From an uncultured bacterium (GTDB lineage: Bacteria; UBP14; UBA6098): a stretch of 22,832 nt of DNA. The translations under genes and the position numbers were made by a program. The stretch spans positions 1-22,832 of the forward strand of contig CAYNTG010000031.1 in assembly GCA_964400105.1 (NCBI GenBank), in the 5' to 3' direction. How positions within the stretch are numbered: the first letter of the stretch is position 1; each line of letters begins with the position of its first letter. The notes under the pieces are model-generated. The model was not told the origin of the DNA. It saw only the letters and a list, made by a program, of their open reading frames with translations, and searched no databases. Shown in pieces: positions 2,251-20,243 of the stretch.

Positions 2251-2259
2251 GATTTAGTC

Positions 2260-3416: not shown

Positions 3417-3417
3417 T

Positions 3418-7314: not shown

Positions 7315-7321
7315 AATAAAC

Positions 7322-7345: not shown

Positions 7346-7675
7346 TGTCCGCCACAAGGTCCGTATGGAAAGGACATATGGATCGCAACCATCCGCCCAT
7401 TTATATCATATCAATCGCCTCGATTAACATCTTCTCCTCGTTGAGATTTGGCGGCATCCGTTCCATCGATTCGTTGCGTGAATCACAGAATACGTGAGTT
7501 TTCTTGCGGCAGATTATTGAGAAATGACTTGCACATCGGACAGATCGACATTATTTTCATGTTCGAGAATAGGTGCGGAAGTTTCGTCACCGAGGCGTTA
7601 AACCGCTTCGCACGATTCGCTTCGGCTAGATGAAATTTTTCTATATGAAGTATCAAAACCAACAAGGAGAAAAAC

Positions 7676-7963: not shown

Positions 7964-8219
7964 TCTGAGACCTACGAAAATTTTCCTCGCTTCGGGCGGC
8001 AGTGCCGTAGCCGTCGAGCATGACGGCTGCGGAGCGGACAGGCGGCCGGCATGGGGGATGGCGGGTTTGGGGTTGGGATTTTTGCGTCCTATCGGAACCG
8101 CAAAAATCATGACGGCCGATGCGTTGGTGTAACGGCAATCGCCTACCACGGTATATCCTAAGGGCGCTTCGATTAAGCTCGATTGTTGTTCTGCCTTGCC
8201 TGTCGTCATGTGGCGACTG

Positions 8220-8267
8220 GTCGTATAGATATATGCCTTGTCATTTTGGCATATATCTATAAACGAC
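8220..8267. repeat. Long imperfect palindrome about 100 bp upstream of the response-regulator gene
   Basis: GTCGTATAGATATATGCC ttgtcatttt GGCATATATCTATAAACGAC: 14 perfect pairs plus a 5-bp GTCGT/ACGAC extension across a 2-nt bulge, with a 10-nt loop. It is not followed by a U-run on either strand, so it is more likely an operator or structured element than an intrinsic terminator. Confidence 0.5.
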
Positions 8268-8370
8268 GATAAAAAATCCGAGATAGCGGTTTTCCAATAA
8301 AGTCCTCACGACCAATAATTACGAGTGTGTTTGTTTTTTGGCATTTCGTTTGCGATTATCGTTGGCGAGT

Positions 8371-8772
8371 ATGAAAAAGAATGAACTGAAAACTCTTATA
8401 GTCGAGGACGACCTTAGGGCTGCGGAAACGCTCTGCGAATTCCTCGATCTTCGCGGAAAAATGAAAAGCGTTATCGCTTGCGATGTCGAAGATGCTCTTT
8501 CGCTTTTCAATAGCGATTTTGAGTTCGCGATTATAGATATCAATCTTTCGGGCGAGATCGACGGTCTCGAACTTTTAAGACGGTTAAAGGCCCTTAACCC
8601 GAATCTCTTTATCGTGATCGTCACGGCTTCGGACATCGACGATAACCGCAAAATTAGCCTTTCGCTGGGTGCCGATGCCTTTTTGCCGAAGCCGCTCGAC
8701 TTCGGATCGCTCGATGTAATTCTCGACGGGGTATGCTCGAAGAAAACCGTCGCCGATCATGGCAAAACCTGA
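8371..8772 (+). CDS. Single-domain CheY-like response regulator (receiver domain only)
   Basis: About 133 aa from the ATG at 8371 (the track ORF begins at a TTG at 8338). Receiver-domain hallmarks are present: the acidic pair in LIVEDD, the phospho-acceptor Asp in FAIIDINL, the conserved Thr/Ser in IVIVTAS, and the conserved Lys in FLPKP. There is no output domain. No histidine kinase is present in the window. Confidence 0.75.
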   Translation: MKKNELKTLIVEDDLRAAETLCEFLDLRGKMKSVIACDVEDALSLFNSDFEFAIIDINLSGEIDGLELLRRLKALNPNLFIVIVTASDIDDNRKISLSLGADAFLPKPLDFGSLDVILDGVCSKKTVADHGKT

Positions 8773-9020: not shown

Positions 9021-9968
9021 GTGGTTATTCTATTAATCTTTATGGCGGTATCGTCGCTGCTCTGCGCGCAGATGTCGCCCGACAGCGCTGCGGACTCCCT
9101 CGTATCCGTGCAGGAATGGGGAAATATCGAGATCGAGGGTAGCCTTTCCGCCGACTCGATCTCTCAGAATGACACCCTTGTTTTCACCGTCAAATTGAAA
9201 CTTCGAGGAAATCCCGACGATTATTCAATCGCGGAACCGGGCGCGCCGCCGATAACCAATCTAAGTCTTATCGCCACGTCGCAGGCAAATCGAACCGAAC
9301 GATCGGAAGGCGAGACACACCTCATAAAAGAGTATCGATTTACATATGTGGCGATCTCTATCGGGATGGCCTATGTCAACCCGTTGCGCGTCCAGTATGT
9401 CTATATCCCAAACGGAGAAAGCCGTTCGCTCGCCTCCTCCAGATTTGAAATCGAGATTACCGAACCGATCATTCCGAAGAAGGGAGTCGATTGGGTTGTC
9501 GTGATTATAGTCCTCTTGATAATCTGTGCCGGCGCTATTCTCACGTTTATTTTATCGAAGAAGGGCAGAAAAAATCCGACCGTCGAGGAGGAGGAAATTC
9601 CCCCGGAAAAGATAGCCCGTCAGAGGATTATCAACCTCAAGCCCGGTCGAAATGCAGATATATCAAAAAGTATAGACGATACTACGCGAATCCTGTCCAA
9701 TTATATCTTCGCCCGTTACGGAATCGATGCCGCACGCCTTTCGAAGGAGGAGATCGTTATGTCCCTCGAAAAACATGGTATCCCGGCCAACACAACGAAG
9801 AATCTCGATATGGCCTTCGCGATATGCGATGAGGTTCGTTTCGCCAATCATAAGGCCACCCAAACGGATCGAGATAACATCGAATTGGCGTTGGAATCGC
9901 TTCTCGCTTTCGGGGAAAAAACGAATCCACAACAATCGAAACAAGACGATATCGACGATAAATCATAA
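9021..9968 (+). CDS. BatD-family paralog 1 ('mini-BatD'): signal peptide, one BatD-type beta-rich ectodomain, TM helix, DUF4381-like cytoplasmic tail
   Basis: ORF 8913..9968. The proposed start is GTG 9021, 4 nt after AGGAGGT, giving MVILLIFMAVSSLLCAQ as signal peptide. A TM helix (VVVIIVLLIICAGAILTFIL) follows at about residue 180. The C-terminal tail (ILSNYIFARYGIDAARLSKEEIV...LDMAFAICDEVRFA) shares a motif pattern with the tails of the 14274 and 20243 proteins: ILxxYIxxRxGxxAxxLSxxE...L...CDxVKFA. Confidence 0.6.
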   Translation: MVILLIFMAVSSLLCAQMSPDSAADSLVSVQEWGNIEIEGSLSADSISQNDTLVFTVKLKLRGNPDDYSIAEPGAPPITNLSLIATSQANRTERSEGETHLIKEYRFTYVAISIGMAYVNPLRVQYVYIPNGESRSLASSRFEIEITEPIIPKKGVDWVVVIIVLLIICAGAILTFILSKKGRKNPTVEEEEIPPEKIARQRIINLKPGRNADISKSIDDTTRILSNYIFARYGIDAARLSKEEIVMSLEKHGIPANTTKNLDMAFAICDEVRFANHKATQTDRDNIELALESLLAFGEKTNPQQSKQDDIDDKS

Positions 9969-9998: not shown

Positions 9999-10988
9999 AT
10001 GAACGAAGAAATTCAGAAACTGAACGAAAGGATAGCCGGGGAATCCACCTTTATCGATGACATGAGGACCGAGTTCGCCAAGGTCATAGTCGGTCAAAAT
10101 TACCTGATCGACCGGCTTATTATCGGCCTTTTGGCGGACGGCCACGTCCTTCTCGAGGGCGTTCCCGGAATCGCAAAAACCCTTTCGGTGAAAACACTCT
10201 CCGATATTATCGAAGCGGACTTCCAGCGGATTCAATTCACCCCGGACCTGCTACCGGCGGATATTATCGGGACGTTGATCTATAATCAGGCCAAAGGGAT
10301 ATTCACGACCAAGAAAGGCCCGATTTTCTCGAACATCATACTCGCCGACGAGATCAACAGGGCACCGGCAAAGGTTCAATCCGCACTGCTCGAAGCGATG
10401 CAGGAACGTCAAATCACCATCGGCGGAGAGACATTCCCGTTGCCGGTTCCATTCATGGTTCTCGCCACGCAGAATCCCATCGAGCAGCAGGGGACATATC
10501 CGTTGCCGGAAGCGCAGGTCGATAGATTTTTGATGAAGGTGATCGTGTCGTATCCCGACCGAGAGGACGAGCGGAAGATCATGCGCCTTCACGGCCGGAT
10601 CGAAATCCCCGTTGCGAACCCGGTAATCAAACCGGAACAGATAATGCGCGCACGGCACACCGTCCGGGATATCTATGTCGATGAGAAGATCGAGAGCTAT
10701 ATCCTCGATCTGGTCTTCGCAACGAGGAACCCGGCGCACTACGGCCTCGACGAACTCGGCGAGCTTATCCAATATGGAGCGAGTCCGAGAGCGACACTCT
10801 ACCTGAGAAGCTGCGCGCAGGCCAACGCATTCCTCAACCATCGGGGATACGTCACGCCGGAGGATATCCGAACTATCGCTATGGACGTCCTTCGCCATCG
10901 CGTAATCGTTACATACGAGGCGGAGGCCGAAGAGATTGCTGCAGAGGACGTCGTTCTCAAGGTTCTCGGCGCGGTGGAGGTTCCGTAA
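9999..10988 (+). CDS. MoxR-family AAA+ ATPase
   Basis: 329 aa with a Walker A-like GVPGIAKT, a Walker B/DEAD-like ILADEINRA, and the extended MoxR signature (...ATQNPIEQQGTYPLPEAQVDRF...). Size and order match the ATPase that normally heads Bat/vWA operons. Confidence 0.9.
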   Translation: MNEEIQKLNERIAGESTFIDDMRTEFAKVIVGQNYLIDRLIIGLLADGHVLLEGVPGIAKTLSVKTLSDIIEADFQRIQFTPDLLPADIIGTLIYNQAKGIFTTKKGPIFSNIILADEINRAPAKVQSALLEAMQERQITIGGETFPLPVPFMVLATQNPIEQQGTYPLPEAQVDRFLMKVIVSYPDREDERKIMRLHGRIEIPVANPVIKPEQIMRARHTVRDIYVDEKIESYILDLVFATRNPAHYGLDELGELIQYGASPRATLYLRSCAQANAFLNHRGYVTPEDIRTIAMDVLRHRVIVTYEAEAEEIAAEDVVLKVLGAVEVP

Positions 10989-11000
10989 TTTAACGAAACT

Positions 11001-11819
11001 ATGAACATGGAAAAAGACGAAAACAACAAGACAAATTCCCGGCTTTCGCCGGATGAGATGGAGTGGAACCGCGATACATTCCGGTTTCCGAAGTCGTCTA
11101 TCGTCGAATCGAGTTTCAAAACTCCGACACGGGTTCAATGGTTTATCGGTCTGTGCGTATTGCTGTTCGCTATGCTGTTTTTTCTCGGACAGCTGCTTTT
11201 GCCGGATAAATCGGAGATATATCTTGTGGTGTCGTCCGTTTCCGTGCTCATTATCGCATTTTTCGGACTTTTCTCGCTCTCCAAACTAACGAGACAAACC
11301 AGACATCTCAGGTTGCTCTTGAATATCGACAGGACAACCGGTCTTTACGGTTCTACATTCTTGATGGAGGAACTCGATCGCTTTATCGATGAAGCCGGGC
11401 ATGAACTTGTCCTGATCTTCCTCGACCTCGACGAGCTTAAAAAATTCAACGATAAATTCGGCCACCGACGCGGAGATATTTTGATACGCAATGCTGCCGA
11501 TATTCTTTCAAAAACCGTTGCGGGAAAGGGCATGGGCTTCCGCTGCGGTGGGGACGAATTCGTGGCTATGCTGACCGATATATCGAGTGAGGAGGCCGTC
11601 GAGCTTGCAAAAAGCGTGCATGAATCGTTCGTCGAAAAGGGGATATCGGCGTCCATCGGCATCTATAAATGGAAAAAAGGGATGTCCGCCGACAAACTTC
11701 TCTATGAGGCCGATCAGGCCATGTATAAAGCGAAACGCGCGGGAAAAGGAAAACTGTTTATTCCGGATATCGGAAGCTATGGAAACGCCGACGATCTCGA
11801 CGGAGAATTTATCGAATGA
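11001..11819 (+). CDS. Membrane-anchored GGDEF-domain protein (putative diguanylate cyclase)
   Basis: 272 aa with two N-terminal TM helices (WFIGLCVLLFAMLFFLGQLLL; LVVSSVSVLIIAFFGLFSL) followed by a GGDEF domain. The active-site motif is intact (GFRCGGDEFVAML), with an upstream DRTTGLYG (DxLTGLxNR-like) block and the conserved ...KAKRAGKG... region. The start is 13 nt after the MoxR stop, and the stop overlaps the next ORF. Confidence 0.85.
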   Translation: MNMEKDENNKTNSRLSPDEMEWNRDTFRFPKSSIVESSFKTPTRVQWFIGLCVLLFAMLFFLGQLLLPDKSEIYLVVSSVSVLIIAFFGLFSLSKLTRQTRHLRLLLNIDRTTGLYGSTFLMEELDRFIDEAGHELVLIFLDLDELKKFNDKFGHRRGDILIRNAADILSKTVAGKGMGFRCGGDEFVAMLTDISSEEAVELAKSVHESFVEKGISASIGIYKWKKGMSADKLLYEADQAMYKAKRAGKGKLFIPDIGSYGNADDLDGEFIE

Positions 11820-11833
11820 AACGGACTGTTATG

Positions 11834-12406
11834 AAAAGAAACCTGATTATATCGATCTTATTATTCGCGGCCGTTGCCGTCTTCGCCGCCGAGGATGTCA
11901 CCGAAACGACGCCGAACAGGATCGCACCGGCTATCGGAGTTATGAATACCCCACTCGCTGTTGGGTATAAGATGCCCTTCGCGGATCATTACAGCATCGA
12001 TCTCATGCTCCACGTTCCGGAATTCTACAAAAACGAATCCGGCGGAAACTGCATCGAGTTCGGCGGTCTCGCAGGGTATAATATCCCGCTTCGCCTCGAA
12101 GAGAATATCGCATTCATGATCAAGCCGCAATTCGACCTATCCTATTCGATGGAAACGATAGAGATTCTCGATAAAAATTATTCGATAAACACATTGAGCC
12201 TGCGCCCTGGCGCTTTTATCGGTATCGAGGTTTTTCTCGAAGAGGTCGGTGTGCCGAATGTCAATATCTCATTGGGTTTCACCGCCGGAATGGAATATAA
12301 TATCGTCGATGCCGACGATGAACTCGGCTACAACGAATCCAATTTCCATATACCAATGGCGACACACCCATTCGGCGCGACCGTCGCGGCATGGTGGTTC
12401 TTCTAA
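11834..12406 (+). CDS. Small outer-membrane beta-barrel protein (about 170 aa mature)
   Basis: Signal peptide MKRNLIISILLFAAVAVFAA. Alternating hydrophobic/polar stretches are typical of beta-strands. The C-terminal ...TVAAWWFF ends in an aromatic Phe, the classic OMP sorting signature. An alternative ATG at 11816 overlaps the GGDEF stop. Confidence 0.6.
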   Translation, partial: KRNLIISILLFAAVAVFAAEDVTETTPNRIAPAIGVMNTPLAVGYKMPFADHYSIDLMLHVPEFYKNESGGNCIEFGGLAGYNIPLRLEENIAFMIKPQFDLSYSMETIEILDKNYSINTLSLRPGAFIGIEVFLEEVGVPNVNISLGFTAGMEYNIVDADDELGYNESNFHIPMATHPFGATVAAWWFF

Positions 12407-12426: not shown

Positions 12427-13302
12427 ATGATTCCAAAAGAGATAATAAAGAAAATACGACGACTCGATATCCGCACCAAGCGGCTCGTCAACGACATATT
12501 TTCAGGGGAGTATCACTCGGTATTCAAGGGCCGGGGCATGGAGTTCTCCGAGGTGCGAGAATATGTTCTCGGCGACGATATTCGCAATATTGACTGGAAC
12601 GTAACGGCGCGAACCGGGCAGCCGCATGTTAAGGTTTTCGAGGAGGAACGCGAACTGACCGTCATGCTTATGGTCGATGTCTCCAGTTCCGGCGAGTTCG
12701 GCACGGCGACGAGCATGAAGCGGGATATCGCCCTCGAGATATGCGCACTTCTGGCATTTTCCGCGATAGACAACAACGATCTGGTCGGCCTCGTGATGTT
12801 CACCGACAAGATCGAAAAATCGATCGTGCCGAAGAAGGGGCGTAAGCACGTGCTTCGCATCCTTCGTGAATTGCTATATTTCAAGCCGGAGGATACGCGG
12901 ACGAACCTCGCTCTTCCTTTGGATTATCTCAATCGAATTACGAAAAGGCGTTCCATCGTCTTCATGATAAGCGATTTTATGGGCGAAGATTATGAGAAGG
13001 CCATGACCATTACCGCAAAGAAACACGACCTCGTGCCTGTCGTAATCTCCGATCCGCGCGAGGAGAATATGCCGAATATCGGGTTGATCGAACTCGAGGA
13101 TGCCGAGACCGGCAAAGCCATTCTGATCGATACATCCGATCCGACTCTGCGCGATGCGTTCGGTCTTAACGTATCGAGGACACAGCTCGAAAGGGAAAAG
13201 ATATTCAAGCGTATTGGATTGGACCACATGGACATAAGGCTCGATAAGCCCTATATCGACGAACTGACGACATTCTTCAAAAAACGTGCGGCGAGATACT
13301 GA
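12427..13302 (+). CDS. DUF58-family protein (MoxR partner; degenerate vWA-like)
   Basis: ORF 12391..13302. The start was placed at ATG 12427 (MIPKEIIKKIRRLDIRTKRL...). The characteristic DUF58 N-terminal block is present (...YHSVFKGRGMEFSEVREYVLGDDIRNIDWNVTARTGQPHVKVFEEERELTVMLMVDVSSS...). It occupies the canonical position after the MoxR ATPase, apart from the two inserted genes. Confidence 0.85.
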   Translation: MIPKEIIKKIRRLDIRTKRLVNDIFSGEYHSVFKGRGMEFSEVREYVLGDDIRNIDWNVTARTGQPHVKVFEEERELTVMLMVDVSSSGEFGTATSMKRDIALEICALLAFSAIDNNDLVGLVMFTDKIEKSIVPKKGRKHVLRILRELLYFKPEDTRTNLALPLDYLNRITKRRSIVFMISDFMGEDYEKAMTITAKKHDLVPVVISDPREENMPNIGLIELEDAETGKAILIDTSDPTLRDAFGLNVSRTQLEREKIFKRIGLDHMDIRLDKPYIDELTTFFKKRAARY

Positions 13303-13318
13303 GTATAGGAGAATCGAA

Positions 13319-14269
13319 ATGGACAAAATCAACGATCCTTATAAAACAATTCGAATCGCTCTGATATTGAGCATTGTCGGCATTATCGTGACCGCGACGG
13401 CGCTGATTTTCGCTATTGTCTTGCCCACAAAAAATGCCGTGTCGTTCGAGCAGGCCAAGCGTTACGCGAGCAAGCTCGCCAATAGCGAGCTATATCCTCA
13501 AGCTGTCGGTGAATTCGAGCGGATTCTCCGCGACTACAATCTCAGCGACCGCGAGGCGGGAAGCATATTATACCAAATCGGAGATATATCCGCCGAACAC
13601 CTTCGCGATCCGGGTAAAGCGCTCGCGGCTTTCATCAAGATTCAAGAGCTTTACCCCGATCATCCATTGAAGGACGATATCGAGCGCAAGATCATTGCCC
13701 AGTTGGACAAAATGGGTATGTCAAAGCAGGCTCAACTCAGGTTGAGTGAGACGGTCGATCCGGGAAAACAGGTTTCGGAAACCGAACCGTCCGTGGTCGT
13801 CGCCCGGATCGGCGATAGGGCAATTACGAGTGACGAGATCGAGGACGCGCTTGCCGATTTGCCACCGGAGATTGCAGAGCAGTTAATCGATCCGCAGGCC
13901 AAAGGCCGGTTCCTGCAAGATTATGTCGGGCAGCAGCTTCTTTACGATGCCGCACTTCGAGCCGGTTATGACAAACACCCGGAGACGGTCGAGATGTTCG
14001 AATCGGCGCGGAAAAACATACTGATCTCGACCTATTTCAACGATAATATCGCCAATCGGGTTGAGATTTCACAATCCGATATCGGGTATTTTTACGAAAT
14101 CCATAAGGCGGAGTTCGGCGATAAACCGCTCGACGAGATACGACCGCAGGTCGAGAACGCTCTTCGACAACAGAAGATGGCGGAGATTCATCAGAGCGTG
14201 ATCGATGAATTGATAAAGACGGAGAAGGTCCAATTATTCCCGGAGAATCTGAAAAAAACCGGTGAGTAG
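13319..14269 (+). CDS. Membrane-anchored protein with a TPR-like segment and a SurA-N/PpiD-like chaperone domain (no PPIase domain)
   Basis: ORF 13286..14269. The start was placed at ATG 13319 (AGGAGAATCGAAATG). An N-terminal TM helix (IRIALILSIVGIIVTATALIFAIVL) is followed by a helical TPR-like region (...YPQAVGEFERILRDYNLSDREAGSILYQIGDIS...ALAAFIKIQELYPDHPL...). The chaperone-like segment begins with the SurA_N signature VVARIGDRAITSDEIEDAL and has the helical pattern (...GQQLLYDAALRAGY...) seen in the N-domains of SurA, PpiD and trigger factor. Confidence 0.55.
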   Translation: MDKINDPYKTIRIALILSIVGIIVTATALIFAIVLPTKNAVSFEQAKRYASKLANSELYPQAVGEFERILRDYNLSDREAGSILYQIGDISAEHLRDPGKALAAFIKIQELYPDHPLKDDIERKIIAQLDKMGMSKQAQLRLSETVDPGKQVSETEPSVVVARIGDRAITSDEIEDALADLPPEIAEQLIDPQAKGRFLQDYVGQQLLYDAALRAGYDKHPETVEMFESARKNILISTYFNDNIANRVEISQSDIGYFYEIHKAEFGDKPLDEIRPQVENALRQQKMAEIHQSVIDELIKTEKVQLFPENLKKTGE

Positions 14270-14273
14270 AGGT

Positions 14274-15338
14274 ATGAACGCAAGAGTAAAAATATATTTA
14301 TTGATAACTCTTTTTGTCGTGGCACTTTATGCCCAAAAAGCGACTATCGAGACATCGGCAAATCCGACGACGATAACCATCGGCGATTACATAACCTATC
14401 GCGTAACTATCACCCACGATCCGAAGATCGCTATCGCATGGCCCGGCGTTGCCGCCGAACTCGGCCAATTTCAGATCGTCGATTTCGAGACATCCGATCC
14501 GATTATTCTCGAAGACGACCGCGAAAAGGAGATTTTGACTTATTACATAAGCACCTACGATGTCGGTGAATGGATAATCCCGCCGACGGCGATAGCATAT
14601 TACGACTCCGCCGCAGACACGACAATCCTGCTTCGCACGGAGCCGATAGGTATAACCGTTAAATCCCTCCTGTCGGATGAGGATTGGGCGAAGATCAGGT
14701 CCATCGCAGAATCGGACAGCTCACTCGCCGGTAAGGAGAAGCAGATCGCCGCCGGTCGCGCAATCCAGATGGCGAAGGAAGAGATGCTCCGCGACATCAC
14801 CGATCCGCAAAGGATCGAGCGCGATAAGCTATTCTATATAGGTATCGCGGTCGTCGTTCTCATTCTCGCGGCGCTCATAGCCGGCTTTATCTTCTGGCGG
14901 AAACGCAGAGGGATCACCGGCTCGATATTCAGCATGTCCGCGCCGCAGGTTCCACCGCACGAAGCTGCTTTGGCCGCGATAGCCGCTCTCGTAGCGAAGG
15001 ATTATATCACGAACAAGAGGTTCAAAAAATACTACACACGACTTTCGGAAATCCTTCGTGAATATATCGAGAACCGTGTCGGCGTCGCGGCGCTCGAGCT
15101 CTCGACCTCCGAGACGATGAATAATCTCATAAGCTCCGATTTTCCGCTTCGAGAGGGGGATTCCGATCTCGTTGAATCCGTTCTCGAAAGATGCGATCTG
15201 GTCAAGTTTGCGAAGCTCGTTCCACCGGAGGATTGGCATATCGAAACGGTCGGAGTGGCGCGCGATTTTATCGAAAGAACCAAACCCGACGAGCCGAAGC
15301 CGGAGGATGAAGAGATCGAAGGGGGTGAAGTCGAATAA
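14274..15338 (+). CDS. BatD-family paralog 2 ('mini-BatD'), sitting in the pre-BatA slot normally held by a short DUF4381 gene
   Basis: Start ATG 14274 with GAGG 5 nt upstream. Signal peptide MNARVKIYLLITLFVVALYAQ. One BatD-type beta ectodomain (ITIGDYITYRVTITHDP..., compare BatD YVGEQINVSFTLYTQYN). TM helix (FYIGIAVVVLILAALIAGFIFW). DUF4381-like tail (YYTRLSEILREYIENRVGVAALELSTSETMNNL...LERCDLVKFAKL). The stop overlaps the batA start (TAATG). Confidence 0.7.
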   Translation: MNARVKIYLLITLFVVALYAQKATIETSANPTTITIGDYITYRVTITHDPKIAIAWPGVAAELGQFQIVDFETSDPIILEDDREKEILTYYISTYDVGEWIIPPTAIAYYDSAADTTILLRTEPIGITVKSLLSDEDWAKIRSIAESDSSLAGKEKQIAAGRAIQMAKEEMLRDITDPQRIERDKLFYIGIAVVVLILAALIAGFIFWRKRRGITGSIFSMSAPQVPPHEAALAAIAALVAKDYITNKRFKKYYTRLSEILREYIENRVGVAALELSTSETMNNLISSDFPLREGDSDLVESVLERCDLVKFAKLVPPEDWHIETVGVARDFIERTKPDEPKPEDEEIEGGEVE

Positions 15339-16378
15339 TGGAGGGTTTTATCAATAAGATAGCCAATGCAATTTTCGGCCGATTTACCGGAGGGTTTTTC
15401 GAGTTCGCTTCTCCGTGGTGGCTCCTTTTGATCGTCCCCGCGATAGCACTTTTCATTTGGCGCAGATCGCGCCGAAGCGGGTCTTTGCGCTATTCCAATA
15501 TCGATCTCGTAAAAGGCTCGAAGGTATCCGGTCGGGTGGCGATCTTCTCGGCTTTGGCCTGGCTCGAGATGATCGGGCTGGTTCTTTTTGCCATAGCGGC
15601 GGCGCGGCCAAGGTCCGGTGCGGTGAAGGAAGAGACGTTCACCGAGGGCGTCGATATTGTCATGGTTATGGATCTATCCAGCTCGATGCGCGCCGAGGAT
15701 TTCAAGCCGAAGAACCGTCTCGAGGCCGCAAAGGTCGTCGCCGCAGATTTCATCGAGGGCCGCACAAACGACCGGATCGGTCTCGTCGTTTTCGCCGCGA
15801 AGGCTTTTACCCAATGCCCGTTAACCCTCGATTACGGCGTGCTTTTGGACTTTTTAGAGGGGATCGAGATCGGCCAGATCGAGGATGGAACAGCCATTGG
15901 AACGGCTATCGCAACCGGCCTTAACCGCCTGCGCGACTCGAAGGCCGAATCGAAGATCATGATCCTTTTGACCGACGGGATAAACAACCGCGGTCAGGTC
16001 GATCCGATCACCGCTGCTCAGGCCGCGAAGGCTCTCGGAATTAGAATTTATACTATCGGAGCCGGACGAAAGGGATATGCGCTCTATCCGGTGGACGATC
16101 CATTCTTCGGCAAGCGCCACGTCCGAATGCCGGTCGAGATCGACGAGAAGACGCTTAATCAGATCGCGGAAATATCCGGCGCCGAATACTTCCGCGCCAC
16201 GGATACCGAGAGCCTGCGGAAGATCTACTCCGAGATCGATAAGCTGGAAAAAACGAAGATCGAGATTCACCATTTCACGCGCTACCGGGAGCTTTTCCAC
16301 GGTTTCATTATCGCGGGATTCCTGTTTCTTTTGGCCGATGTCCTGTTGCGCAACACCATATTCCGAAGACTCCCCTGA
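15338..16378 (+). CDS. batA: BatA-like vWA-domain membrane protein
   Basis: 346 aa with two N-terminal TM helices, then a von Willebrand A domain with a MIDAS motif (DIVMVMDLSSSM ... ILLTDGINN) and a C-terminal TM helix. This is the typical BatA architecture and position. Confidence 0.85.
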   Translation: MEGFINKIANAIFGRFTGGFFEFASPWWLLLIVPAIALFIWRRSRRSGSLRYSNIDLVKGSKVSGRVAIFSALAWLEMIGLVLFAIAAARPRSGAVKEETFTEGVDIVMVMDLSSSMRAEDFKPKNRLEAAKVVAADFIEGRTNDRIGLVVFAAKAFTQCPLTLDYGVLLDFLEGIEIGQIEDGTAIGTAIATGLNRLRDSKAESKIMILLTDGINNRGQVDPITAAQAAKALGIRIYTIGAGRKGYALYPVDDPFFGKRHVRMPVEIDEKTLNQIAEISGAEYFRATDTESLRKIYSEIDKLEKTKIEIHHFTRYRELFHGFIIAGFLFLLADVLLRNTIFRRLP

Positions 16379-17205
16379 TGACATTAGACGCCGGAAATAT
16401 CGCCAAATTTTACGATAACCCGCTCAAAAAAATCGGTAGCGAAACCGAACACGACTCGATAGAGTCAAAGCATTACGATATCGAGGCAGAGCGATTCCTC
16501 GCCGAAAATGACAAGCGCGCGCTTCTCGTGGATTTCGACGAGCCGCTACCGCCGAGGCACCGTGCATTCTGGATCGCAGTGGGAGATGTCGAGAATCTGC
16601 GTGTGTTGGATATCGGATGCGGCTATGGATATGCGGCTTCGCGGCTCGCGCTTTGCGGCGCAAAGGTCACGGCGATAGATGTATCCGAAGGGATGTGCGA
16701 TCTGACGCGTCGCGCGGCGCATATCAACGGCGTCGATATCGATGTCCGCAAGCTCAGCGCGGTCGATACCGGTTTGCCGGAGGGATCGTTCGATCTTATC
16801 GTCGGTCAGGTGTCGCTGCACCATCTTCCTCTCGACAGCGCCGGCCCGGAGCTTGTTCGCCTCCTGAAACCCGGCGGAAGAGCCGTTTTCCTCGAACCGA
16901 TTCATCCGTGGCGTGCGATTCTAAAAATGCGTGCGATGCTGCCGATTTCATGCCAGGAGTCGCCCGGCGGCGGCGCACTTCGCGCAGACGAGATCGAGCG
17001 GCTCGGCATCATATTCGGCGAGGTCGAATTGAAACGCTTCGCGATACTCGAACGCCTGCGTCGCTTTCGATCTTTGAGGTGGGCTTCTCCGTTTATATTT
17101 AGCATCGATAACCTGCTTCTTGCGATCCCGGTCCTGCGCGGACTTGCCGCACATGCCGTTATCGAGTTGACAAAAAATCAAAACCCAAACATAATACGAA
17201 GATGA
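16378..17205 (+). CDS. Class I SAM-dependent methyltransferase (unusual insertion between batA and batB)
   Basis: 275 aa with SAM-binding motif I VLDIGCGYGYAASRL, an acidic residue after beta2 (VTAIDVSEGM), and motif-II-like ...LKPGGRAVFLEP. The start overlaps the batA stop (TGATG frameshifted overlap), and the stop overlaps the batB start (ATGA). Confidence 0.75.
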   Translation: MTLDAGNIAKFYDNPLKKIGSETEHDSIESKHYDIEAERFLAENDKRALLVDFDEPLPPRHRAFWIAVGDVENLRVLDIGCGYGYAASRLALCGAKVTAIDVSEGMCDLTRRAAHINGVDIDVRKLSAVDTGLPEGSFDLIVGQVSLHHLPLDSAGPELVRLLKPGGRAVFLEPIHPWRAILKMRAMLPISCQESPGGGALRADEIERLGIIFGEVELKRFAILERLRRFRSLRWASPFIFSIDNLLLAIPVLRGLAAHAVIELTKNQNPNIIRR

Positions 17206-18233
17206 TACGATTTGCAAGCACATCCGCCTTTTATCTGATGATCGGATTGCCGATTCTTGTCCTCTTTTTCTGGAGCGTGGAGAGACGTAAAAGAGAGCTG
17301 CTCAAGCGATTCGGCGAGATCGAGCTTATTCAACGGCTTACGGCCAGCCGAAGCAAGGCGATGCTAGCCGTGCGAAGGGTCTTTTTCCTCCTCGGATACG
17401 CCCTTCTCGTCGTCGCTTTAGCGAGGCCGCAGCTTGGAACGAAGCTCGAAGAGGTAAAGCGCGAGGGGATTGATCTCATCGTCGCTATCGATGTTTCGAC
17501 CTCGATGCTCGCCGGGGATGTCGCTCCGAATCGAATGGACAAGGCACGGCACGAGCTTAAAACATTGATTGAAAAGCTCGGTGGAGACCGGATCGGTATC
17601 GTAGCATTCGCCGGCGATGCATTTCTCGTTTCGCCGTTGACCACGGATTATATGGCATCGCTCATGATACTCGATGCGGTCGATGTCGGCGTTATCCCGG
17701 AACAGGGAACCGCTATCGCCCGTGCGATAGAGATCGCCCGGAAAGGTTTCGTCGCGAAGGATAATCGCCAGAAGGTCATCCTACTTTTGACCGACGGCGA
17801 GGATCACGAGGGCGATCCGGTTGCCGCCGCAGAGGCCGCCGCAGACGATGGGGTGATTATCTATTGCGTGGGAATCGGTTCGCCTAGCGGGGTTCCGATC
17901 CCGCTCGATGATCGATATGGTAATAAAAGCGGATACCTTCGCAACGACGAAGGCGATATCGTAACGAGCAAATTGGACGAGGCGACGCTACGAAGGATGA
18001 CGCTTGCGGCAAACGGGAAATATTATTCCGCGCGGCCCGGAGCCGCAGAATTGGACGAGATTATCGAGGATATTAGCAGTATGGAAAAGGCCGAGATCGA
18101 GACGAGGGTATTTACAAATTACGAGGATCGATTTCAATGGGCGCTTTTGCCGGCGATGATTTTGTTTATCCTATCGGGCGCACTTCCAGAGCGTAAAAGG
18201 CGGGATCGCGGATCGAAAAGGCCGTGGATTTGA
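17202..18233 (+). CDS. batB: BatB-like vWA-domain membrane protein
   Basis: 343 aa with an N-terminal TM helix, a vWA domain with MIDAS (DLIVAIDVSTSM ... ILLLTDGEDH), and a C-terminal TM helix. This is the canonical second vWA protein of Bat operons. Confidence 0.85.
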   Translation: MIRFASTSAFYLMIGLPILVLFFWSVERRKRELLKRFGEIELIQRLTASRSKAMLAVRRVFFLLGYALLVVALARPQLGTKLEEVKREGIDLIVAIDVSTSMLAGDVAPNRMDKARHELKTLIEKLGGDRIGIVAFAGDAFLVSPLTTDYMASLMILDAVDVGVIPEQGTAIARAIEIARKGFVAKDNRQKVILLLTDGEDHEGDPVAAAEAAADDGVIIYCVGIGSPSGVPIPLDDRYGNKSGYLRNDEGDIVTSKLDEATLRRMTLAANGKYYSARPGAAELDEIIEDISSMEKAEIETRVFTNYEDRFQWALLPAMILFILSGALPERKRRDRGSKRPWI

Positions 18234-18240
18234 TTTTTTT

Positions 18241-18420
18241 AAAAGCGTGGTTGAGCCTTCATTGCGAGATTTACTGCACCTAGAAGACCGAATGTCGGGT
18301 CAATTTCGTTGCTTGTCGTCATTGCGAGGAAGCGAAGCGACGAAGCAATCCCGTCGTCCAAGGTGAGATTGCCGCAACCATTCGCATTTCGTGCTTCAGA
18401 TCTCGCAACGACGGTTAAAT
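18241..18420. repeat. Repeat-rich non-coding spacer between batB and yihY-like gene
   Basis: Contains CATTGCGAG twice (18262-18270 and 18320-18328). Also contains an element GTCATTGCGAGGAAGCGAAGCGACGAAGCAATCC (18316-18349) related to the reverse complement of 6081-6116, a GAGATTGCCGC copy (about 18366-18376, same motif as 6082-6092), and a distal inverted partner CAGATCTCGCAACGACG (about 18398-18414) of TCATTGCGAGAT (18260-18271). Confidence 0.5.
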
Positions 18421-18431
18421 GACAGGTTTTA

Positions 18432-19340
18432 ATGCAGATGAAAAATGTCCTTAAGAAAATAGGAGCATGGCTCGAGGCGAGGTTACAAACCCTTGCACGA
18501 ATCTTCAGAAGATTTCAGGCCGACAACGGCATGACCCTTGCCGGCTCGTTGAGCTTTTATTTTCTGATAAGCATCCTGCCGATGAGCCTTCTTGCGCTAT
18601 CCCTGCTCGGACATATCCTCGGAAGCAGGTCGGCCGCTGTATCCGCAGTTACCGCCCTCGGCAAGATCGGCAATATTCTCCCGGAGGGGACCATCGAAAT
18701 CGAGTCGATACTCGGCGACCTGATAGGTGGCAAGGGTATGCTCGGTGGTGTGGGAATCCTGCTGTTAGTGCTATTCTCCGGCGGGGTTTTTTACACGATA
18801 GAACTTATTATAAACCAGATATTTAGGGTAAGCATCCGAAGGGGATTTCTCAGGAGAACGGCGGTCGTCTATTTCTTTATACTGATTGCGGGTATTCTGC
18901 TTCTCGCATCCATCGCGGCCACCGTTATCGCGGTCATCGTGGGCGACCTTTCGATGAGCATTTTTGGCATTAATCCTGCGGAAATCCCTCTGCTGTGGAA
19001 TCTGTTCTTTTCGTTGGTGCCGCCCGCCTTGATAATGCTGATGTTCGCAATAATTTACAAGGTCGGCCCGAAGACCAAAGTCGCATGGCGCGCGGCATTC
19101 GGGGGGGCGGTTTTTGGATCGGTTCTATGGGAAATTTCGAGGCGATTATTCGGGTTGTATCTATCGTCGATAGCGCCTTATAGCAAGCTTTATGGTGCCC
19201 TCGGTGTTTTTTTAGCGCTCTGGATATGGATATTTTATTCGGCCAATATCTTCATAATCGGGGCCGAATATGCCGCTATACTCGACGAACGACGCAACAG
19301 GAGAATATCTGTTGAAAAAAACTTAGAACGAAAGGGTTAA
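18432..19340 (+). CDS. YihY/BrkB-family membrane protein (formerly annotated 'ribonuclease BN-like')
   Basis: 302 aa with six or more TM segments and the family-typical N-terminus (...RFQADNGMTLAGSLSFYFLISILPMSLL...) and C-terminal ...IFYSANIFIIGAEYAA.... No strong RBS is visible. It follows a 198-bp repeat-bearing spacer. Confidence 0.75.
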   Translation: MQMKNVLKKIGAWLEARLQTLARIFRRFQADNGMTLAGSLSFYFLISILPMSLLALSLLGHILGSRSAAVSAVTALGKIGNILPEGTIEIESILGDLIGGKGMLGGVGILLLVLFSGGVFYTIELIINQIFRVSIRRGFLRRTAVVYFFILIAGILLLASIAATVIAVIVGDLSMSIFGINPAEIPLLWNLFFSLVPPALIMLMFAIIYKVGPKTKVAWRAAFGGAVFGSVLWEISRRLFGLYLSSIAPYSKLYGALGVFLALWIWIFYSANIFIIGAEYAAILDERRNRRISVEKNLERKG

Positions 19341-19341
19341 T

Positions 19342-19539
19342 ATGCCGATTTATGAATTCAAATGCGAAAAATGCGGCGAAGAATTCGAGCTTCTTCTGCC
19401 GTCGTCCGGGCGCGACGACCGGAGCAATAAATGCCCAAAATGCGGAGAACCCGGTGTCGTAAGGAAATTATCGAATGTTGCTCCTTCGCAATCGGGAAAT
19501 AGTTGTCCAACATGCCAAAGCGGAACATGCGGTTTTTGA
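19342..19539 (+). CDS. FmdB-family zinc-ribbon protein (65 aa)
   Basis: MPIYEFKCEKCGEEFE...CPKCGE...CPTCQSGTCGF: the N-terminal MPxYE(F/Y)xCxxCG signature plus two further Cys pairs. AAAGGG lies upstream. It starts 2 nt after the yihY-like stop and overlaps the batC start. Confidence 0.7.
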   Translation: MPIYEFKCEKCGEEFELLLPSSGRDDRSNKCPKCGEPGVVRKLSNVAPSQSGNSCPTCQSGTCGF

Positions 19540-20243
19540 TTGCAATATCGGTCGTATCGATTCTCGCATCGTCATTGCTCGCGGGGCCTTATGGCGATGT
19601 TGTCAAAGGAGTTCGAGCCTTCGACGAGGATGATTTTCAGGAGTCGCTGACGAAATTCCAGGAGGCTAATCTCATAGAGCCGGAATCTCCCGTTATTCAA
19701 CAGAATCTCGGTCTCTCACTTTACAAACTCGGGGATTTTGAAAAATCTCGAGAGCAGTTGGAGAAGGCATTTACGGCTTCCGACGAACCGGTCGAGAAAT
19801 CGGATATCCAGTATAACCTCGGAAACGCATTCTTCCAAATCGACTCGCTGCCACGTTCGATAATCCATTACCAAAAAGCCCTCGAATTAAACCCGGAAAA
19901 CAGCGACGCAAAATATAACCTGGAGCTTGCGAGGGCGCTTTTGAAGGAATTCTCCGAAAAAGAGCAACAAGATCAGCAGCAACAGCAGCAACAGCAAGAT
20001 CAGGAGCAGCAAGATCAAGAGAAACAAGATCAAGAGCAAGATCAAGAGCAACAGCAGCAGGATGAGCAAGGCGAGGAGGAAGAGCAGCAAGAGCAGACTC
20101 AACCGAAACCCAAAGAAGGCGAGATGAGCGAGGAAGAGGCTCAAAGACTTCTCGATGCGATGAAGGAAAACGAAGAGGACCTTCAGAAGGAAAAGATGCG
20201 CCGTCAGGGGGACGGCAACGGGCGTCATGCCAAGCCGTGGTAA
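19512..20243 (+). CDS. batC: BatC-like TPR protein with Gln/Asp/Glu-rich low-complexity tail
   Basis: Signal/anchor MRFLIAISVVSILASSLLAG (first ATG at 19512, alternative ATG at 19527). TPR-like repeats (...QNLGLSLYKLGDFEKSREQLEKA..., ...YNLGNAFFQIDSLPRSIIHYQKALELNPENSDAKYNLELA...). The QQDQQQQQQQQDQEQQDQEKQDQEQDQEQQQQDEQGEEEE tail matches the acidic/Gln-rich tail known in BatC proteins. Confidence 0.75.
   Translation: MPKRNMRFLIAISVVSILASSLLAGPYGDVVKGVRAFDEDDFQESLTKFQEANLIEPESPVIQQNLGLSLYKLGDFEKSREQLEKAFTASDEPVEKSDIQYNLGNAFFQIDSLPRSIIHYQKALELNPENSDAKYNLELARALLKEFSEKEQQDQQQQQQQQDQEQQDQEKQDQEQDQEQQQQDEQGEEEEQQEQTQPKPKEGEMSEEEAQRLLDAMKENEEDLQKEKMRRQGDGNGRHAKPW
19963..20094 (+). repeat. Cryptic in-frame CAA/CAG/GAT/GAG nucleotide repeat encoding the Q/D/E tract of batC
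   Basis: Iterations of CAAGATCAAGAGCAA- and CAGCAGCAACAG-type units over about 130 bp. The reverse strand reads as poly-Leu, which explains spurious antisense ORF 19887..20228. Confidence 0.6.

What the first reader, a model, noticed from the sequence alone, without database searches (positions are those of the whole stretch)
11001..12406. Membrane GGDEF diguanylate cyclase plus outer-membrane beta-barrel wedged between the MoxR ATPase and its DUF58 partner
MoxR and DUF58 genes are almost always adjacent. Here a gene pair is inserted between them: a two-TM GGDEF protein with an intact GGDEF motif (RCGGDEF) and a small signal-peptide protein ending in WWFF. The GGDEF stop overlaps the OMP start. 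The GGDEF protein has only a short periplasmic loop and no recognisable sensory domain, so its input may come through protein-protein contact with the Bat complex or the upstream orphan response regulator. A dedicated c-di-GMP source inside a MoxR/vWA operon would link second-messenger signalling to this still function-less system.
Basis: partly seen in the sequence, partly recalled or inferred. Interest (0 to 1): 0.65.

Follow-up and report, generated by a model that had tools for sequence, protein, structure and literature searches.

The report
Diguanylate cyclase and porin-like barrel inside Bat operon
In one small clade of uncultured Zixibacteria/UBP14-type bacteria, a gene for a membrane-anchored maker of the signal molecule c-di-GMP and a gene for a small outer-membrane barrel protein sit permanently between two normally adjacent genes of the poorly understood Bat (MoxR/vWA) envelope operon, which hints at a link to c-di-GMP signalling but does not prove one.

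Summary
Window 11001-11819 encodes a 272-aa protein with a disordered N-tail, two TM helices joined by a 5-residue loop, and a complete GGDEF domain. All catalytic residues are present and there is no RxxD I-site. Window 11816/11831-12406 encodes a signal-peptide protein ending in WWFF. Its AlphaFold model is an 8-stranded barrel that best matches OprF-N, NspA, OmpA and OmpW. The pair lies between MoxR (9999-10988) and DUF58 (12427-13302).

All 14 loci fetched with an ortholog (11 distinct lineages besides the window) keep MoxR-GGDEF-OMP-DUF58 inside the same roughly 15-gene Bat operon, with GGDEF identity falling to 40%. dN is far below dS, although dS is saturated. Of 58 outgroup loci, 52 have MoxR directly next to DUF58, and none carries the GGDEF, the OMP or the methyltransferase that also marks this clade.

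The pair is therefore an old, clade-specific, vertically inherited accessory. It is neither a recent insertion nor a general Bat feature. Functional coupling to the Bat system is inferred from synteny only. The direction of signalling and the input are unknown. The upstream receiver protein also occurs in an outgroup that lacks the cyclase, so it is not specifically tied to it.

Verdict: a new variant of a known kind, of moderate interest.

The parts
8338..8772 (+). Receiver-only response regulator at the head of the operon. The likely true start is the internal MKKNELK.
   Evidence: Pfam Response_reg E 1.2e-16. The acidic pair, phospho-acceptor Asp, Thr and Lys are all present. It is found at the same position in in-clade loci and in outgroup L019.
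9030..9968 (+). BatD-like membrane protein 1. The ORF extends up to 8913; the start was chosen from the length of homologs.
   Evidence: Weak BatD hit, E 0.003. Orthologs of 301-315 aa lie directly upstream of MoxR in all loci.
9999..10988 (+). MoxR AAA+ ATPase (MRP type).
   Evidence: AAA_3 E 1.2e-65 and AAA_lid_2 E 2.6e-20. It is 76-87% identical across the clade.
11001..11819 (+). 272-aa membrane-anchored GGDEF diguanylate cyclase.
   Evidence: PF00990 E 9.6e-31 and TIGR00254 at 102.8 bits. It belongs to an orthogroup of 19 clusters, E 1e-171 to 1e-58, followed by a drop to 1e-16. The AF2 model has pLDDT 80.5. Foldseek top hits are active DGCs at E about 1e-12.
11139..11279 (+). TM hairpin: TM1 is W47-L67, the periplasmic loop is P68-E72 (PDKSE), and TM2 is I73-L93.
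   Evidence: Hydropathy block at residues 42-98. AF2 helices span 43-65 and 68-107, and the second continues as a stalk into the GGDEF domain. Basic residues flank the cytoplasmic ends (sequence).
11322..11750 (+). GGDEF catalytic domain, residues 108-250. The A-site GGDEF is at nt 11547-11561. There is no RxxD I-site.
   Evidence: D142, D144, K147, N150, D151, H155, D159, R181, G183-F187, K245 and K249 are invariant in 19 orthologs. The I-site positions RPAD, RQSD and RSSD of GcbC, 3ign and DosC align to A-G-K-G in this protein.
11816..12406 (+). Small outer-membrane beta-barrel protein of 196 aa, or 191 aa from the ATG at 11831. Signal peptide about residues 1-24, conserved periplasmic N-tail at 25-38, eight-stranded barrel at 39-195, C-terminus WWFF.
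12427..13302 (+). DUF58 (vWA-like partner of MoxR).
   Evidence: PF01882 E 8.2e-79. All homologs are 291 aa. It is 79-90% identical in the clade and 69% or less in outgroups.
13286..15338 (+). Two membrane or periplasmic accessory genes: the 327-aa SurA-N/EpsD-like protein and BatD-like protein 2.
   Evidence: Weak SurA_N_3, EpsD and BatD hits. Both are present in in-clade and outgroup operons.
15338..16378 (+). BatA (BatA N-terminal TM region plus a vWA domain with a DxSxS MIDAS).
   Evidence: VWA E 1.3e-24 and BatA E 2.2e-5.
16378..17205 (+). Class I SAM methyltransferase, a third clade-specific accessory gene.
   Evidence: Methyltransf_11 E 1.5e-19. It lies between BatA and BatB in every in-clade locus whose sequence reaches that far and is absent from all 58 outgroup loci.
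17202..22830 (+). BatB, BrkB/YihY, a Zn-ribbon ORF, BatC (TPR), BatD, and BatE (TPR+SH3, which runs off the window).
   Evidence: Pfam hits. The same order is seen in relatives.

Best explanation
The two genes are a clade-specific accessory pair that entered an already complete, extended Bat (MoxR-DUF58-vWA-TPR-BatD) envelope operon once, in the ancestor of a small group of uncultured FCB-group bacteria labelled Zixibacteria or UBP14. They have been inherited vertically with the operon ever since.

Gene 1 is an active-type diguanylate cyclase. It has a cytoplasmic disordered N-tail, a TM hairpin with essentially no periplasmic exposure, a continuous TM2-stalk helix, and a canonical GGDEF domain that lacks the product-inhibition I-site. 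Because it has no sensor domain, its activity is most likely set in one of two ways. One is how much of it is made, through co-transcription with the Bat genes. The other is contact of its TM hairpin, stalk or N-tail with Bat membrane or cytoplasmic proteins that control its dimerisation. Either way, c-di-GMP synthesis would be tied to expression or state of the Bat machinery.

Gene 2 is a Sec-exported 8-stranded outer-membrane barrel. Its invariant acidic N-terminal tail (AED.T..TP.R) should hang in the periplasm. There it could be held by the periplasmic parts of the Bat assembly (vWA MIDAS domains of BatA/BatB, TPR or BatD domains), giving the system an outer-membrane anchor.

Shown here: domain identities, predicted folds, residue conservation, topology, conserved gene order, absence from outgroups, and purifying selection.

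Inferred: enzymatic activity, co-transcription, any physical contact, and the direction of signalling.
For: GGDEF identity and integrity:
- Domain and fold are supported.
- Catalytic and substrate residues are invariant across 19 orthologs that share only 39-63% identity with the window protein.
- The guanine-specifying Asp (D159, in GD) is kept, so the predicted product is c-di-GMP rather than cGAMP (for the residue; its role is established knowledge from PleD and Hypr GGDEFs).
- The I-site is absent in all members.
- Topology is supported.

OMP:
- An amphipathic strand pattern.
- A conserved C-terminal aromatic signal and a conserved N-tail.

Linkage to the operon:
- All 14 fetched loci show an identical order with short spacers.
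- No promoter or terminator excess and no mobile-element repeats surround the pair.
- There is no compositional break.
- dN/dS is about 0.06 for GGDEF and about 0.10 for the OMP, with dS saturated.
- GGDEF and OMP distances track MoxR distances, r = 0.91 and 0.84.

Clade restriction:
- DUF58 identity shows a gap, at least 79% in the clade against 69% or less outside.
- Outgroup operons have the same skeleton without the GGDEF, the OMP or the methyltransferase.
- The BatA-type vWA domain faces the periplasm in Borrelia BB0173 (PMC5700661).
Against: - No direct evidence of interaction or co-regulation exists. Sister clades run the same operon without the pair, so the pair is dispensable for core Bat function.
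- GGDEF and OMP evolve two to three times faster than MoxR, DUF58 and BatA, as loosely coupled passengers also would.
- No recognisable c-di-GMP receptor domain (PilZ, degenerate GGDEF/EAL, MshEN) appears in the Pfam scans of the operon genes scanned; the 65-aa Zn-ribbon ORF and the shorter start variants were among them.
- The OMP has no sequence-level membership in any OMP family. Only one ortholog touches OMP_b-brl, at E 0.009.
- The GGDEF domain is about 16 residues shorter than the profile, with a truncated hairpin before ISASIG. The effect on activity is unknown.
- The cyclase and the OMP cannot touch each other directly. The cyclase's periplasmic loop is 5 residues and the OMP tail about 14 residues.
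Confidence: 0.6

Rival explanations
1. Passenger cassette. A generic DGC gene and an OMP gene landed once between moxR and duf58 in the clade ancestor. They persist because the position gives them expression, but they act on targets unrelated to the Bat system, such as general biofilm or motility control and an unrelated outer-membrane function.
For: The pair is absent from all 58 outgroup loci with the same operon skeleton. Unrelated small genes (23S_rRNA_IVP) also occasionally insert at exactly this junction in other lineages. GGDEF and OMP diverge faster than the core genes. No c-di-GMP effector is visible in the operon.
Against: The position and order are retained in all 12 distinct lineages, including the window, down to 40% GGDEF identity with saturated dS. 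No ortholog with known context was found anywhere else. Spacers are very short or overlapping and no internal promoter or terminator signal is seen. A third accessory gene, the methyltransferase, co-occurs strictly with the pair, which suggests a coordinated remodelling of the operon.
Confidence: 0.25
2. Client model. The cyclase is a substrate or regulated output of the MoxR-DUF58 AAA+/vWA remodelling pair, so that ATP-driven remodelling gates its dimerisation or metal loading. Its placement between the ATPase and its adaptor reflects this.
For: The gene lies exactly between MoxR and its vWA-like adaptor. It has a 45-residue disordered cytoplasmic N-tail with conserved positions that could serve as a handle. 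MoxR-GGDEF distance correlation is r = 0.91, higher than MoxR-DUF58 at 0.70. That result is weak: it rests on 11 taxa and the pairs are not independent. From established knowledge, other MoxR/vWA pairs (NorQ/NorD, CbbQ/CbbO, CoxD/CoxE) act on clients encoded next to them; NorQD is described in PMC9976466 (listed, not read in depth).
Against: The same MoxR-DUF58 pair exists in hundreds of operons without any cyclase, so its primary client must be something else. There is no direct evidence of any kind.
Confidence: 0.1
3. The GGDEF protein is not a cyclase. It would be a degenerate scaffold or receptor. The barrel might likewise be a soluble periplasmic lipocalin- or avidin-like binder rather than an OMP.
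Confidence: 0.05

Closest known systems
Classical Bat / MoxR(MRP)-DUF58-vWA-TPR operon (Bacteroides fragilis BatI; Leptospira, Borrelia and Riemerella bat genes)
   Same: MoxR AAA_3 at the front, then DUF58, BatA and BatB vWA proteins with the BatA N-terminal region, a BatC TPR protein, BatD, and BatE (TPR+SH3), in that order. The function of these operons is still described only as a contribution to stress or aerotolerance (PMC11834572; PMC3557215, listed).
   Different: MoxR and DUF58 are separated by 1.4 kb that carries a DGC and an OMP. A SAM methyltransferase sits between BatA and BatB. Two extra BatD-like membrane proteins, a SurA-N-like protein, BrkB/YihY and a Zn-ribbon ORF are also embedded. 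The GGDEF, the OMP and the methyltransferase are missing from all 58 outgroup loci.
YfiBNR (TpbB) system of Pseudomonas and E. coli: outer-membrane YfiB, periplasmic YfiR, inner-membrane DGC YfiN
   Same: One operon encodes an inner-membrane GGDEF cyclase together with an outer-membrane protein. The concept is envelope state converted into c-di-GMP. The YfiN GGDEF domain is among the structural matches (7a7e, 4iob).
   Different: YfiN has a periplasmic PAS-like sensor and a HAMP domain; this protein has only a 5-residue loop. YfiB is an OmpA-C/Pal-like lipoprotein; this protein is a non-lipidated beta-barrel. No YfiR-like protein is present. Homology is limited to the GGDEF domain.
Stalk-only, partner-regulated DGCs (SiaD with SiaC; GcbC with LapD; DgcB coiled-coil-GGDEF)
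   Same: A helical stalk leads directly into the GGDEF domain with no ligand-binding sensor. The best Foldseek matches include SiaD-SiaC (7e6g), DgcB (6ttr, TMt 0.77) and GcbC (5euh). These are precedents for control by protein partners.
   Different: Those enzymes are soluble or have other membrane modules, and most keep an I-site. This one is anchored by a 2-TM hairpin and lacks RxxD. No partner has been identified.
Small 8-stranded outer-membrane barrels (OprF/OmpA N-domain, NspA, OmpW, OmpX, PagL, OprH)
   Different: There is no detectable sequence relationship. The family is tiny, with 5 representatives among 1.84 billion. It carries its own invariant motifs: an N-tail AED.T..TP.R and acidic RLEEN and FLEEVG turns.

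Membership tests
GGDEF diguanylate cyclase (PF00990 / TIGR00254) | Profile match above the curated cut-off, covering the whole domain | tested here: met
   PF00990 at 107.2 bits against 23.8, profile positions 2-160 of 161. TIGR00254 at 102.8 bits against 37.4.
GGDEF diguanylate cyclase (PF00990 / TIGR00254) | Intact GG(D/E)EF active-site motif | tested here: met
   G183-G-D-E-F187 is invariant in 19 orthologs.
GGDEF diguanylate cyclase (PF00990 / TIGR00254) | Metal- and GTP-binding residues, equivalent to PleD D327, K332, N335, D344, R366 and K442 | tested here: met
   D142, K147, N150, D159, R181 and K245 are invariant. They align with the corresponding residues of GcbC, 3ign and DosC. Mapping to PleD numbering comes from my own knowledge of PleD.
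GGDEF diguanylate cyclase (PF00990 / TIGR00254) | Palm-like alpha/beta fold | tested here: met
   AF2 pLDDT is 83-96 over the domain. Foldseek gives probability 1.0 to PleD, WspR, DgcZ, DgcB and SiaD, with rmsd 1.6-3 A on isolated domains.
GGDEF diguanylate cyclase (PF00990 / TIGR00254) | RxxD inhibitory I-site (common but not defining) | tested here: not met
   The positions that align to RPAD, RQSD and RSSD of solved DGCs read A-G-K-G. The family consensus is xGxG.
GGDEF diguanylate cyclase (PF00990 / TIGR00254) | Synthesis of c-di-GMP from GTP | not testable with these tools
   Needs an enzyme assay or in vivo c-di-GMP measurement.
Small outer-membrane beta-barrel (OmpA-N/OmpX/OmpW/NspA class) | Cleavable Sec signal peptide without a lipobox | tested here: met
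   Basic n-region, hydrophobic residues 10-24, A-x-A-like site before the invariant A25-E26-D27, and no Cys near the site. No dedicated predictor was available.
Small outer-membrane beta-barrel (OmpA-N/OmpX/OmpW/NspA class) | Closed antiparallel barrel of 8 strands with a hydrophobic exterior | tested here: met
Small outer-membrane beta-barrel (OmpA-N/OmpX/OmpW/NspA class) | C-terminal beta-signal ending in an aromatic residue | tested here: met
   The sequence ends FGATVAAWWFF. F186, G187, A188 and W194 are invariant, and the terminal F is present in 15 of 16 members.
Small outer-membrane beta-barrel (OmpA-N/OmpX/OmpW/NspA class) | Sequence membership in a curated OMP family | tested here: not met
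   No Pfam or NCBIfam hit for the window protein. One of 16 orthologs touches OMP_b-brl at E 0.0088. The profile against PDB sequences finds nothing.
Small outer-membrane beta-barrel (OmpA-N/OmpX/OmpW/NspA class) | Outer-membrane localisation | not testable with these tools
   Needs fractionation or a heat-modifiability test.
Bat / MoxR(MRP)-DUF58-vWA operon | MoxR AAA_3 ATPase with DUF58 immediately downstream | tested here: not met
   Both genes are present but they are separated by the 1.4-kb gene pair. In outgroups 52 of 58 are directly adjacent.
Bat / MoxR(MRP)-DUF58-vWA operon | BatA/BatB vWA membrane proteins, BatC TPR, BatD, and BatE TPR+SH3 downstream | tested here: met
   Pfam hits. 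The order is conserved in relatives.
YfiBNR-type tripartite envelope-to-DGC system | DGC with a periplasmic sensor domain plus HAMP | tested here: not met
   The periplasmic loop is 5 residues. TM2 runs straight into the stalk and the GGDEF domain.
YfiBNR-type tripartite envelope-to-DGC system | OmpA-C/Pal-like outer-membrane lipoprotein and a YfiR-like periplasmic repressor | tested here: not met
   The OMP is a non-lipidated barrel. No OmpA-C or YfiR-family hit appears in the operon proteins scanned.

The most novel reading that the evidence does not exclude
The clade has turned the Bat machine into an envelope-spanning signalling device. The new outer-membrane barrel would present its invariant acidic periplasmic tail to the MIDAS site of the periplasmic BatA/BatB vWA domains. 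The sensor-less cyclase, encoded between the AAA+ motor MoxR and its adaptor DUF58, would be switched on or off by ATP-driven remodelling or by movement of Bat transmembrane partners. Outer-membrane or periplasmic state would then be written into c-di-GMP. If true, this would be the first second-messenger output assigned to any MoxR/vWA Bat system and would give a measurable readout for its unknown activity.
Probability: 0.12. Interest if true: 0.75.

Novelty: new variant of a known kind. Interest (0 to 1): 0.4.

Why it matters
Bat/MoxR-vWA operons are widespread in Bacteroidota, Spirochaetota and many FCB-group phyla. They affect stress tolerance and virulence, yet they still have no molecular mechanism (PMC11834572, PMC5700661).

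A lineage in which evolution has fixed a cyclase with an easily assayed product, plus a dedicated outer-membrane protein, inside this operon offers two concrete handles:
- a readout (c-di-GMP) that could be tested for dependence on MoxR, DUF58 or the Bat proteins in a heterologous host;
- a candidate outer-membrane partner for the periplasmic vWA, TPR and BatD proteins.

It also adds an unannotated small OMP family, with no Pfam hit and only 5 representatives in 1.84 billion proteins. It is a further example of a sensor-less, I-site-less, hairpin-anchored DGC that is probably controlled by partners or by expression.

Two limits apply. The organisms are uncultured, and the link is so far only syntenic.

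Tried and rejected
- Pfam, NCBIfam and PADLOC scans of the OMP gave nothing. Scanning all 16 orthologs gave one marginal OMP_b-brl hit. A profile against PDB sequences gave nothing meaningful.
- PADLOC gave no defence-system assignment for MoxR, GGDEF, OMP or DUF58, so a conflict-system reading was dropped.
- Rfam and tRNA scans of the window were empty.
- The promoter/terminator scan showed no convincing internal signal around the pair.
- The repeat search found no IS or transposon footprints or target duplications flanking the pair. Composition shows no break. A recent mobile insertion was therefore rejected.
- Literature searches for MoxR or Bat together with diguanylate cyclase or c-di-GMP, and for Zixibacteria with DGC, returned no papers.
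- The AlphaFold-database fold search for the OMP was unavailable.
- dN/dS could only be estimated roughly. dS is saturated (above 1) in every available pair, and a few pairs gave nonsense values from mis-registered hit starts. Only the well-behaved pairs are cited.
That served as the outgroup sample but added no new in-clade loci.
- A Hypr (cGAMP-making) GGDEF was considered and rejected, because the guanine-specifying Asp (D159) is invariant.
- The upstream receiver as a dedicated input was considered and set aside, because it is also present in a GGDEF-less outgroup.
Full report
**What is in the window**

The + strand from about 8.3 kb to the end of the window is one tightly packed gene array. 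In order it contains:
- a receiver-only response regulator (8338-8772)
- a BatD-like membrane protein (about 9030-9968)
- MoxR AAA_3 ATPase (9999-10988)
- the GGDEF protein (11001-11819)
- the 196-aa protein (11816-12406)
- DUF58 (12427-13302)
- a SurA-N/EpsD-like 327-aa protein
- a second BatD-like protein
- BatA (vWA)
- a class I SAM methyltransferase
- BatB (vWA)
- BrkB/YihY
- a 65-aa Zn-ribbon ORF
- BatC (TPR)
- BatD
- BatE (TPR+SH3)

The finding's coordinates and gene content are correct. Antisense ORFs over the region (for example 10251-11138, 11345-11662 and 11861-12130 on the minus strand) have no support. I treat them as shadows of the + strand genes, which do have homologs.

**The GGDEF protein**

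Sequence-level evidence:
- Pfam GGDEF matches residues 108-250 over profile positions 2-160 of 161, E 9.6e-31.
- TIGR00254 scores 102.8 bits against a cut-off of 37.4.
- phmmer against PDB sequences finds 32 diguanylate cyclases at E below 1e-10, including GcbC, DosC, DgcZ, PleD and YfiN/TpbB.

Orthogroup:
- A search of 5.8 billion protein clusters gives a sharply bounded group of 19 clusters. All are 236-281 aa and contain only a GGDEF domain. E-values run from 1e-171 to 1e-58, and the next hits start at 1e-16.
- Across these 19 sequences (39-63% identical to the window protein), the following are invariant: D142, D144, K147, N150, D151, G154, H155, D159, R181, G183-G-D-E-F187, K245 and K249.
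- By my knowledge of PleD, these correspond to the metal-binding Asp, the GTP-contacting Lys, Asn and Asp, the Arg before GGEEF, and the C-terminal Lys.
- D159 is the residue that is Ser in cGAMP-making Hypr GGDEFs, so c-di-GMP is the expected product.

I-site: the RxxD motif (RPAD in GcbC, RQSD in 3ign, RSSD in DosC) aligns to A-G-K-G in this protein. The family consensus is xGxG.

Structure:
- The domain is about 16 residues shorter than the profile, because the hairpin before the ISASIG strand is truncated.
- The AlphaFold model has mean pLDDT 80.5, and 83-96 over the domain.
- It shows a disordered tail at 1-39, a helix at 43-65, and a single long helix at 68-107 that runs from TM2 through a short stalk into a canonical GGDEF fold.
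- Foldseek returns only diguanylate cyclases at probability 1.0: a phytochrome-DGC, SiaD-SiaC, WspR, DgcZ, DgcB coiled-coil-GGDEF and PleD.
- Hydropathy gives one block at residues 42-98, which splits into W47-L67 and I73-L93 around the loop PDKSE. Basic residues lie on the cytoplasmic sides.

**The 196-aa protein**

- It has no Pfam, NCBIfam or PADLOC hit.
- It has only 12 homologous clusters, all unnamed.
- A profile of the family run over 1.84 billion representatives finds five proteins in total. Three of these are distant 170-179-aa relatives.
- One distant relative (P0111) lies outside any Bat operon.
- The AlphaFold model (pLDDT 81.9) is all-beta, with eight long strands after a signal helix and a low-confidence segment at 25-32.
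- Within the predicted strands, one face is 68% F/W/Y/L/I/V/M. The other is 70% Gly/Ala/Ser/Thr/Asn or charged residues. This is the pattern of a lipid-facing exterior and a tight polar interior.
- The C-terminus FGATVAAWWFF is conserved. F186, G187, A188 and W194 are invariant, and 15 of 16 members end in F.
- Directly after the signal peptide there is an invariant A25-E26-D27-x-T29-x-x-T32-P33-x-R35. With the usual OMP topology this tail is periplasmic.

The OMP prediction therefore survives, though only at the level of a predicted structure. There is no sequence membership in any curated OMP family.

**Starts and junctions**

- The ATGA overlap at 11816-11819 depends on using the first ATG, which has a GGAG 8 nt upstream.
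- The database call (P0097, 191 aa, 100% identical) and most orthologs begin at the Met encoded at 11831.
- DUF58 homologs are uniformly 291 aa, so 12427 is the probable start.
- Either way, spacers are 12, 0-11 and about 20 nt.
- No promoter or terminator signal stands out.
- No repeats flank the pair.
- G+C is unremarkable.

**Comparative test inside the clade**

- Contexts of six GGDEF orthologs and six genome loci found with the OMP profile were mapped with the window's proteins.
- All 14 loci, which represent 11 distinct lineages besides the window, have the same order: REC-(HtrA)-BatD-like-MoxR-GGDEF-OMP-DUF58-p327-BatD-like-BatA-MTase-BatB-BrkB-BatC-BatD-BatE. One lineage (L004/L005) shows no p327 hit, and L011 and L012 end before the downstream genes.
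- Identities to the window are:

| Gene | Identity to window |
|---|---|
| MoxR | 76-87% |
| DUF58 | 79-90% |
| BatA | 69-80% |
| GGDEF | 40-65% |
| OMP | 44-62% |

- Record titles name Candidatus Zixiibacteriota, "bacterium UBP14_UBA6098" and unnamed MAGs.
- Nei-Gojobori estimates on the closest pairs give dN/dS of about 0.06 for GGDEF and about 0.10 for the OMP. MoxR and DUF58 give about 0.03. dS is saturated, so these values show only that dN is far below dS.
- Pairwise distances of GGDEF and OMP correlate with those of MoxR (r = 0.91 and 0.84) and with each other (0.84). This is what vertical co-inheritance predicts.

**Comparative test outside the clade**

- DUF58 homologs show an identity gap: at least 79% for the clade, then 69% or less.
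- Three nearest outgroup contexts, one of them labelled Zixiibacteriota, have the same skeleton: (REC)-HtrA-BatD-like-MoxR-DUF58-p313-BatD-like-BatA-BatB-(BrkB)-BatC-BatD-BatE. They lack the GGDEF, the OMP and the methyltransferase.
- A metagenome scan with a DUF58 alignment gave 80 more outgroup loci.
- Of the 58 loci with enough upstream sequence:
  - 52 have MoxR ending less than 300 nt before DUF58;
  - 4 have gaps of 463-625 nt, of which three (L027, L085, L096) hold small four-helix-bundle ORFs (23S_rRNA_IVP confirmed by Pfam for L027 and L096) and one an unknown 136-aa ORF;
  - 2 lack MoxR upstream;
  - none has a homolog of the GGDEF, the OMP or the methyltransferase.
The insertion is specific to one clade, and the methyltransferase is a third member of the clade-specific set.

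**Interpretation**

The identities of the parts are well supported. The functional link is inferred. Long retention at an intra-operon position, short spacers, strict co-occurrence with a third accessory gene, and the absence of any ortholog in another context all favour integration into the Bat module over a neutral passenger. They do not exclude the passenger model.

The cyclase has no sensor and no I-site. Its output must therefore be set either by expression with the operon or by partners acting on its TM hairpin, stalk or N-tail. SiaD/SiaC and GcbC/LapD are precedents among the closest structural matches.

The cyclase and the OMP cannot contact each other directly. Any connection between them must run through periplasmic Bat proteins. 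[quoted passage not shown] The window's BatA and BatB have the same TM layout and DxSxS MIDAS motifs. The OMP's invariant acidic tail is therefore a plausible MIDAS ligand. This is a speculation that I could not test.

The upstream receiver protein is intact. It also heads an outgroup operon without the cyclase, so it is not a dedicated input.

No paper in the searchable library links MoxR or Bat systems with diguanylate cyclases. Bat function is still described only phenotypically.

**Verdict**

- The locus is a new, lineage-restricted variant of the known Bat/MoxR-vWA operon. It carries an active-type, sensor-less, I-site-less membrane DGC and a previously unannotated small OMP family.
- Interest is moderate (0.4). 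The locus offers a testable handle on an unsolved system, but the link is syntenic only, the clade is small and uncultured, and the components themselves are ordinary.

Noticed in passing
window 16378-17205 (+): A class I SAM methyltransferase sits between BatA and BatB with 1-nt and 4-nt overlaps. It is present in every in-clade locus whose sequence reaches that far and absent from all 58 outgroup loci, so it co-occurs strictly with the GGDEF/OMP pair. Its substrate is unknown.
   Followed up: partly
window 18432-19539 (+): A BrkB/YihY-family multi-pass membrane protein (18432-19340) and a 65-aa FmdB-type Zn_ribbon_8 ORF (19342-19539, E 8e-16) are embedded between BatB and BatC. BrkB is also present in some outgroup operons (L017, L018), and a Zn-ribbon ORF is present in L008.
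   Followed up: partly
window 19503-20243 (+): The BatC TPR protein carries a long Gln/Glu/Asp low-complexity stretch (QQDQQQQQQQQDQEQQDQEKQDQEQDQEQQQQDEQGEEEEQQEQ) after the TPR repeats.
   Followed up: no
window 8338-8772 (+); L003-L008: An intact receiver-only response regulator heads the operon. Most relatives have an HtrA/DegP protease gene between it and the BatD-like gene. The window, L010 and L012 do not.
   Followed up: partly
window 7315-8337: This is a stretch of about 1 kb between transaldolase and the receiver gene with low G+C (about 0.445) and strong positive GC skew. It holds only a 95-aa ORF (7676-7963) with three hydrophobic segments and no Pfam hit. There is no Rfam or tRNA match.
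   Followed up: partly
window 1294-3473 (-): Oxidative-stress-type genes lie upstream on the other strand: an AhpC/TSA redoxin (2730-3473), OsmC (2260-2730) and an SPFH/Band 7 protein (1294-2175). This is of possible interest given the aerotolerance phenotype attributed to Bat operons.
   Followed up: no
L027 4591-5004; L085 4649-4963; L096 3562-3993; L091 4559-4969: In a few outgroup lineages the MoxR-DUF58 junction holds other small inserted genes. L027 and L096 carry 23S_rRNA_IVP four-helix-bundle proteins (E 7e-38 and 7e-26), L085 a similar ORF that was not scanned, and L091 an unknown 136-aa signal-peptide protein. The junction therefore tolerates insertions.
   Followed up: partly
L015 7510-10522: The most distant stand-alone relative of the OMP family (P0111, 173 aa) lies beside a divergently oriented gene pair, one of which is a VWA_2+OmpA-domain protein. 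This may be coincidence.
   Followed up: no
window 11816-12406; alignment A1: Besides the N-tail motif, the OMP family has invariant acidic turns: R93-L-E95-E96-N97 and F140-L-E142-E143-V-G145. With the usual OMP topology both would sit at the extracellular rim of the barrel, which might form a cation or ligand site.
   Followed up: no
in-clade loci W, L001-L014: GGDEF pairwise distances correlate more strongly with MoxR (r = 0.91) than MoxR does with DUF58 (0.70) or BatA (0.80). With only 11 taxa and non-independent pairs, this is a hint at most.
   Followed up: partly
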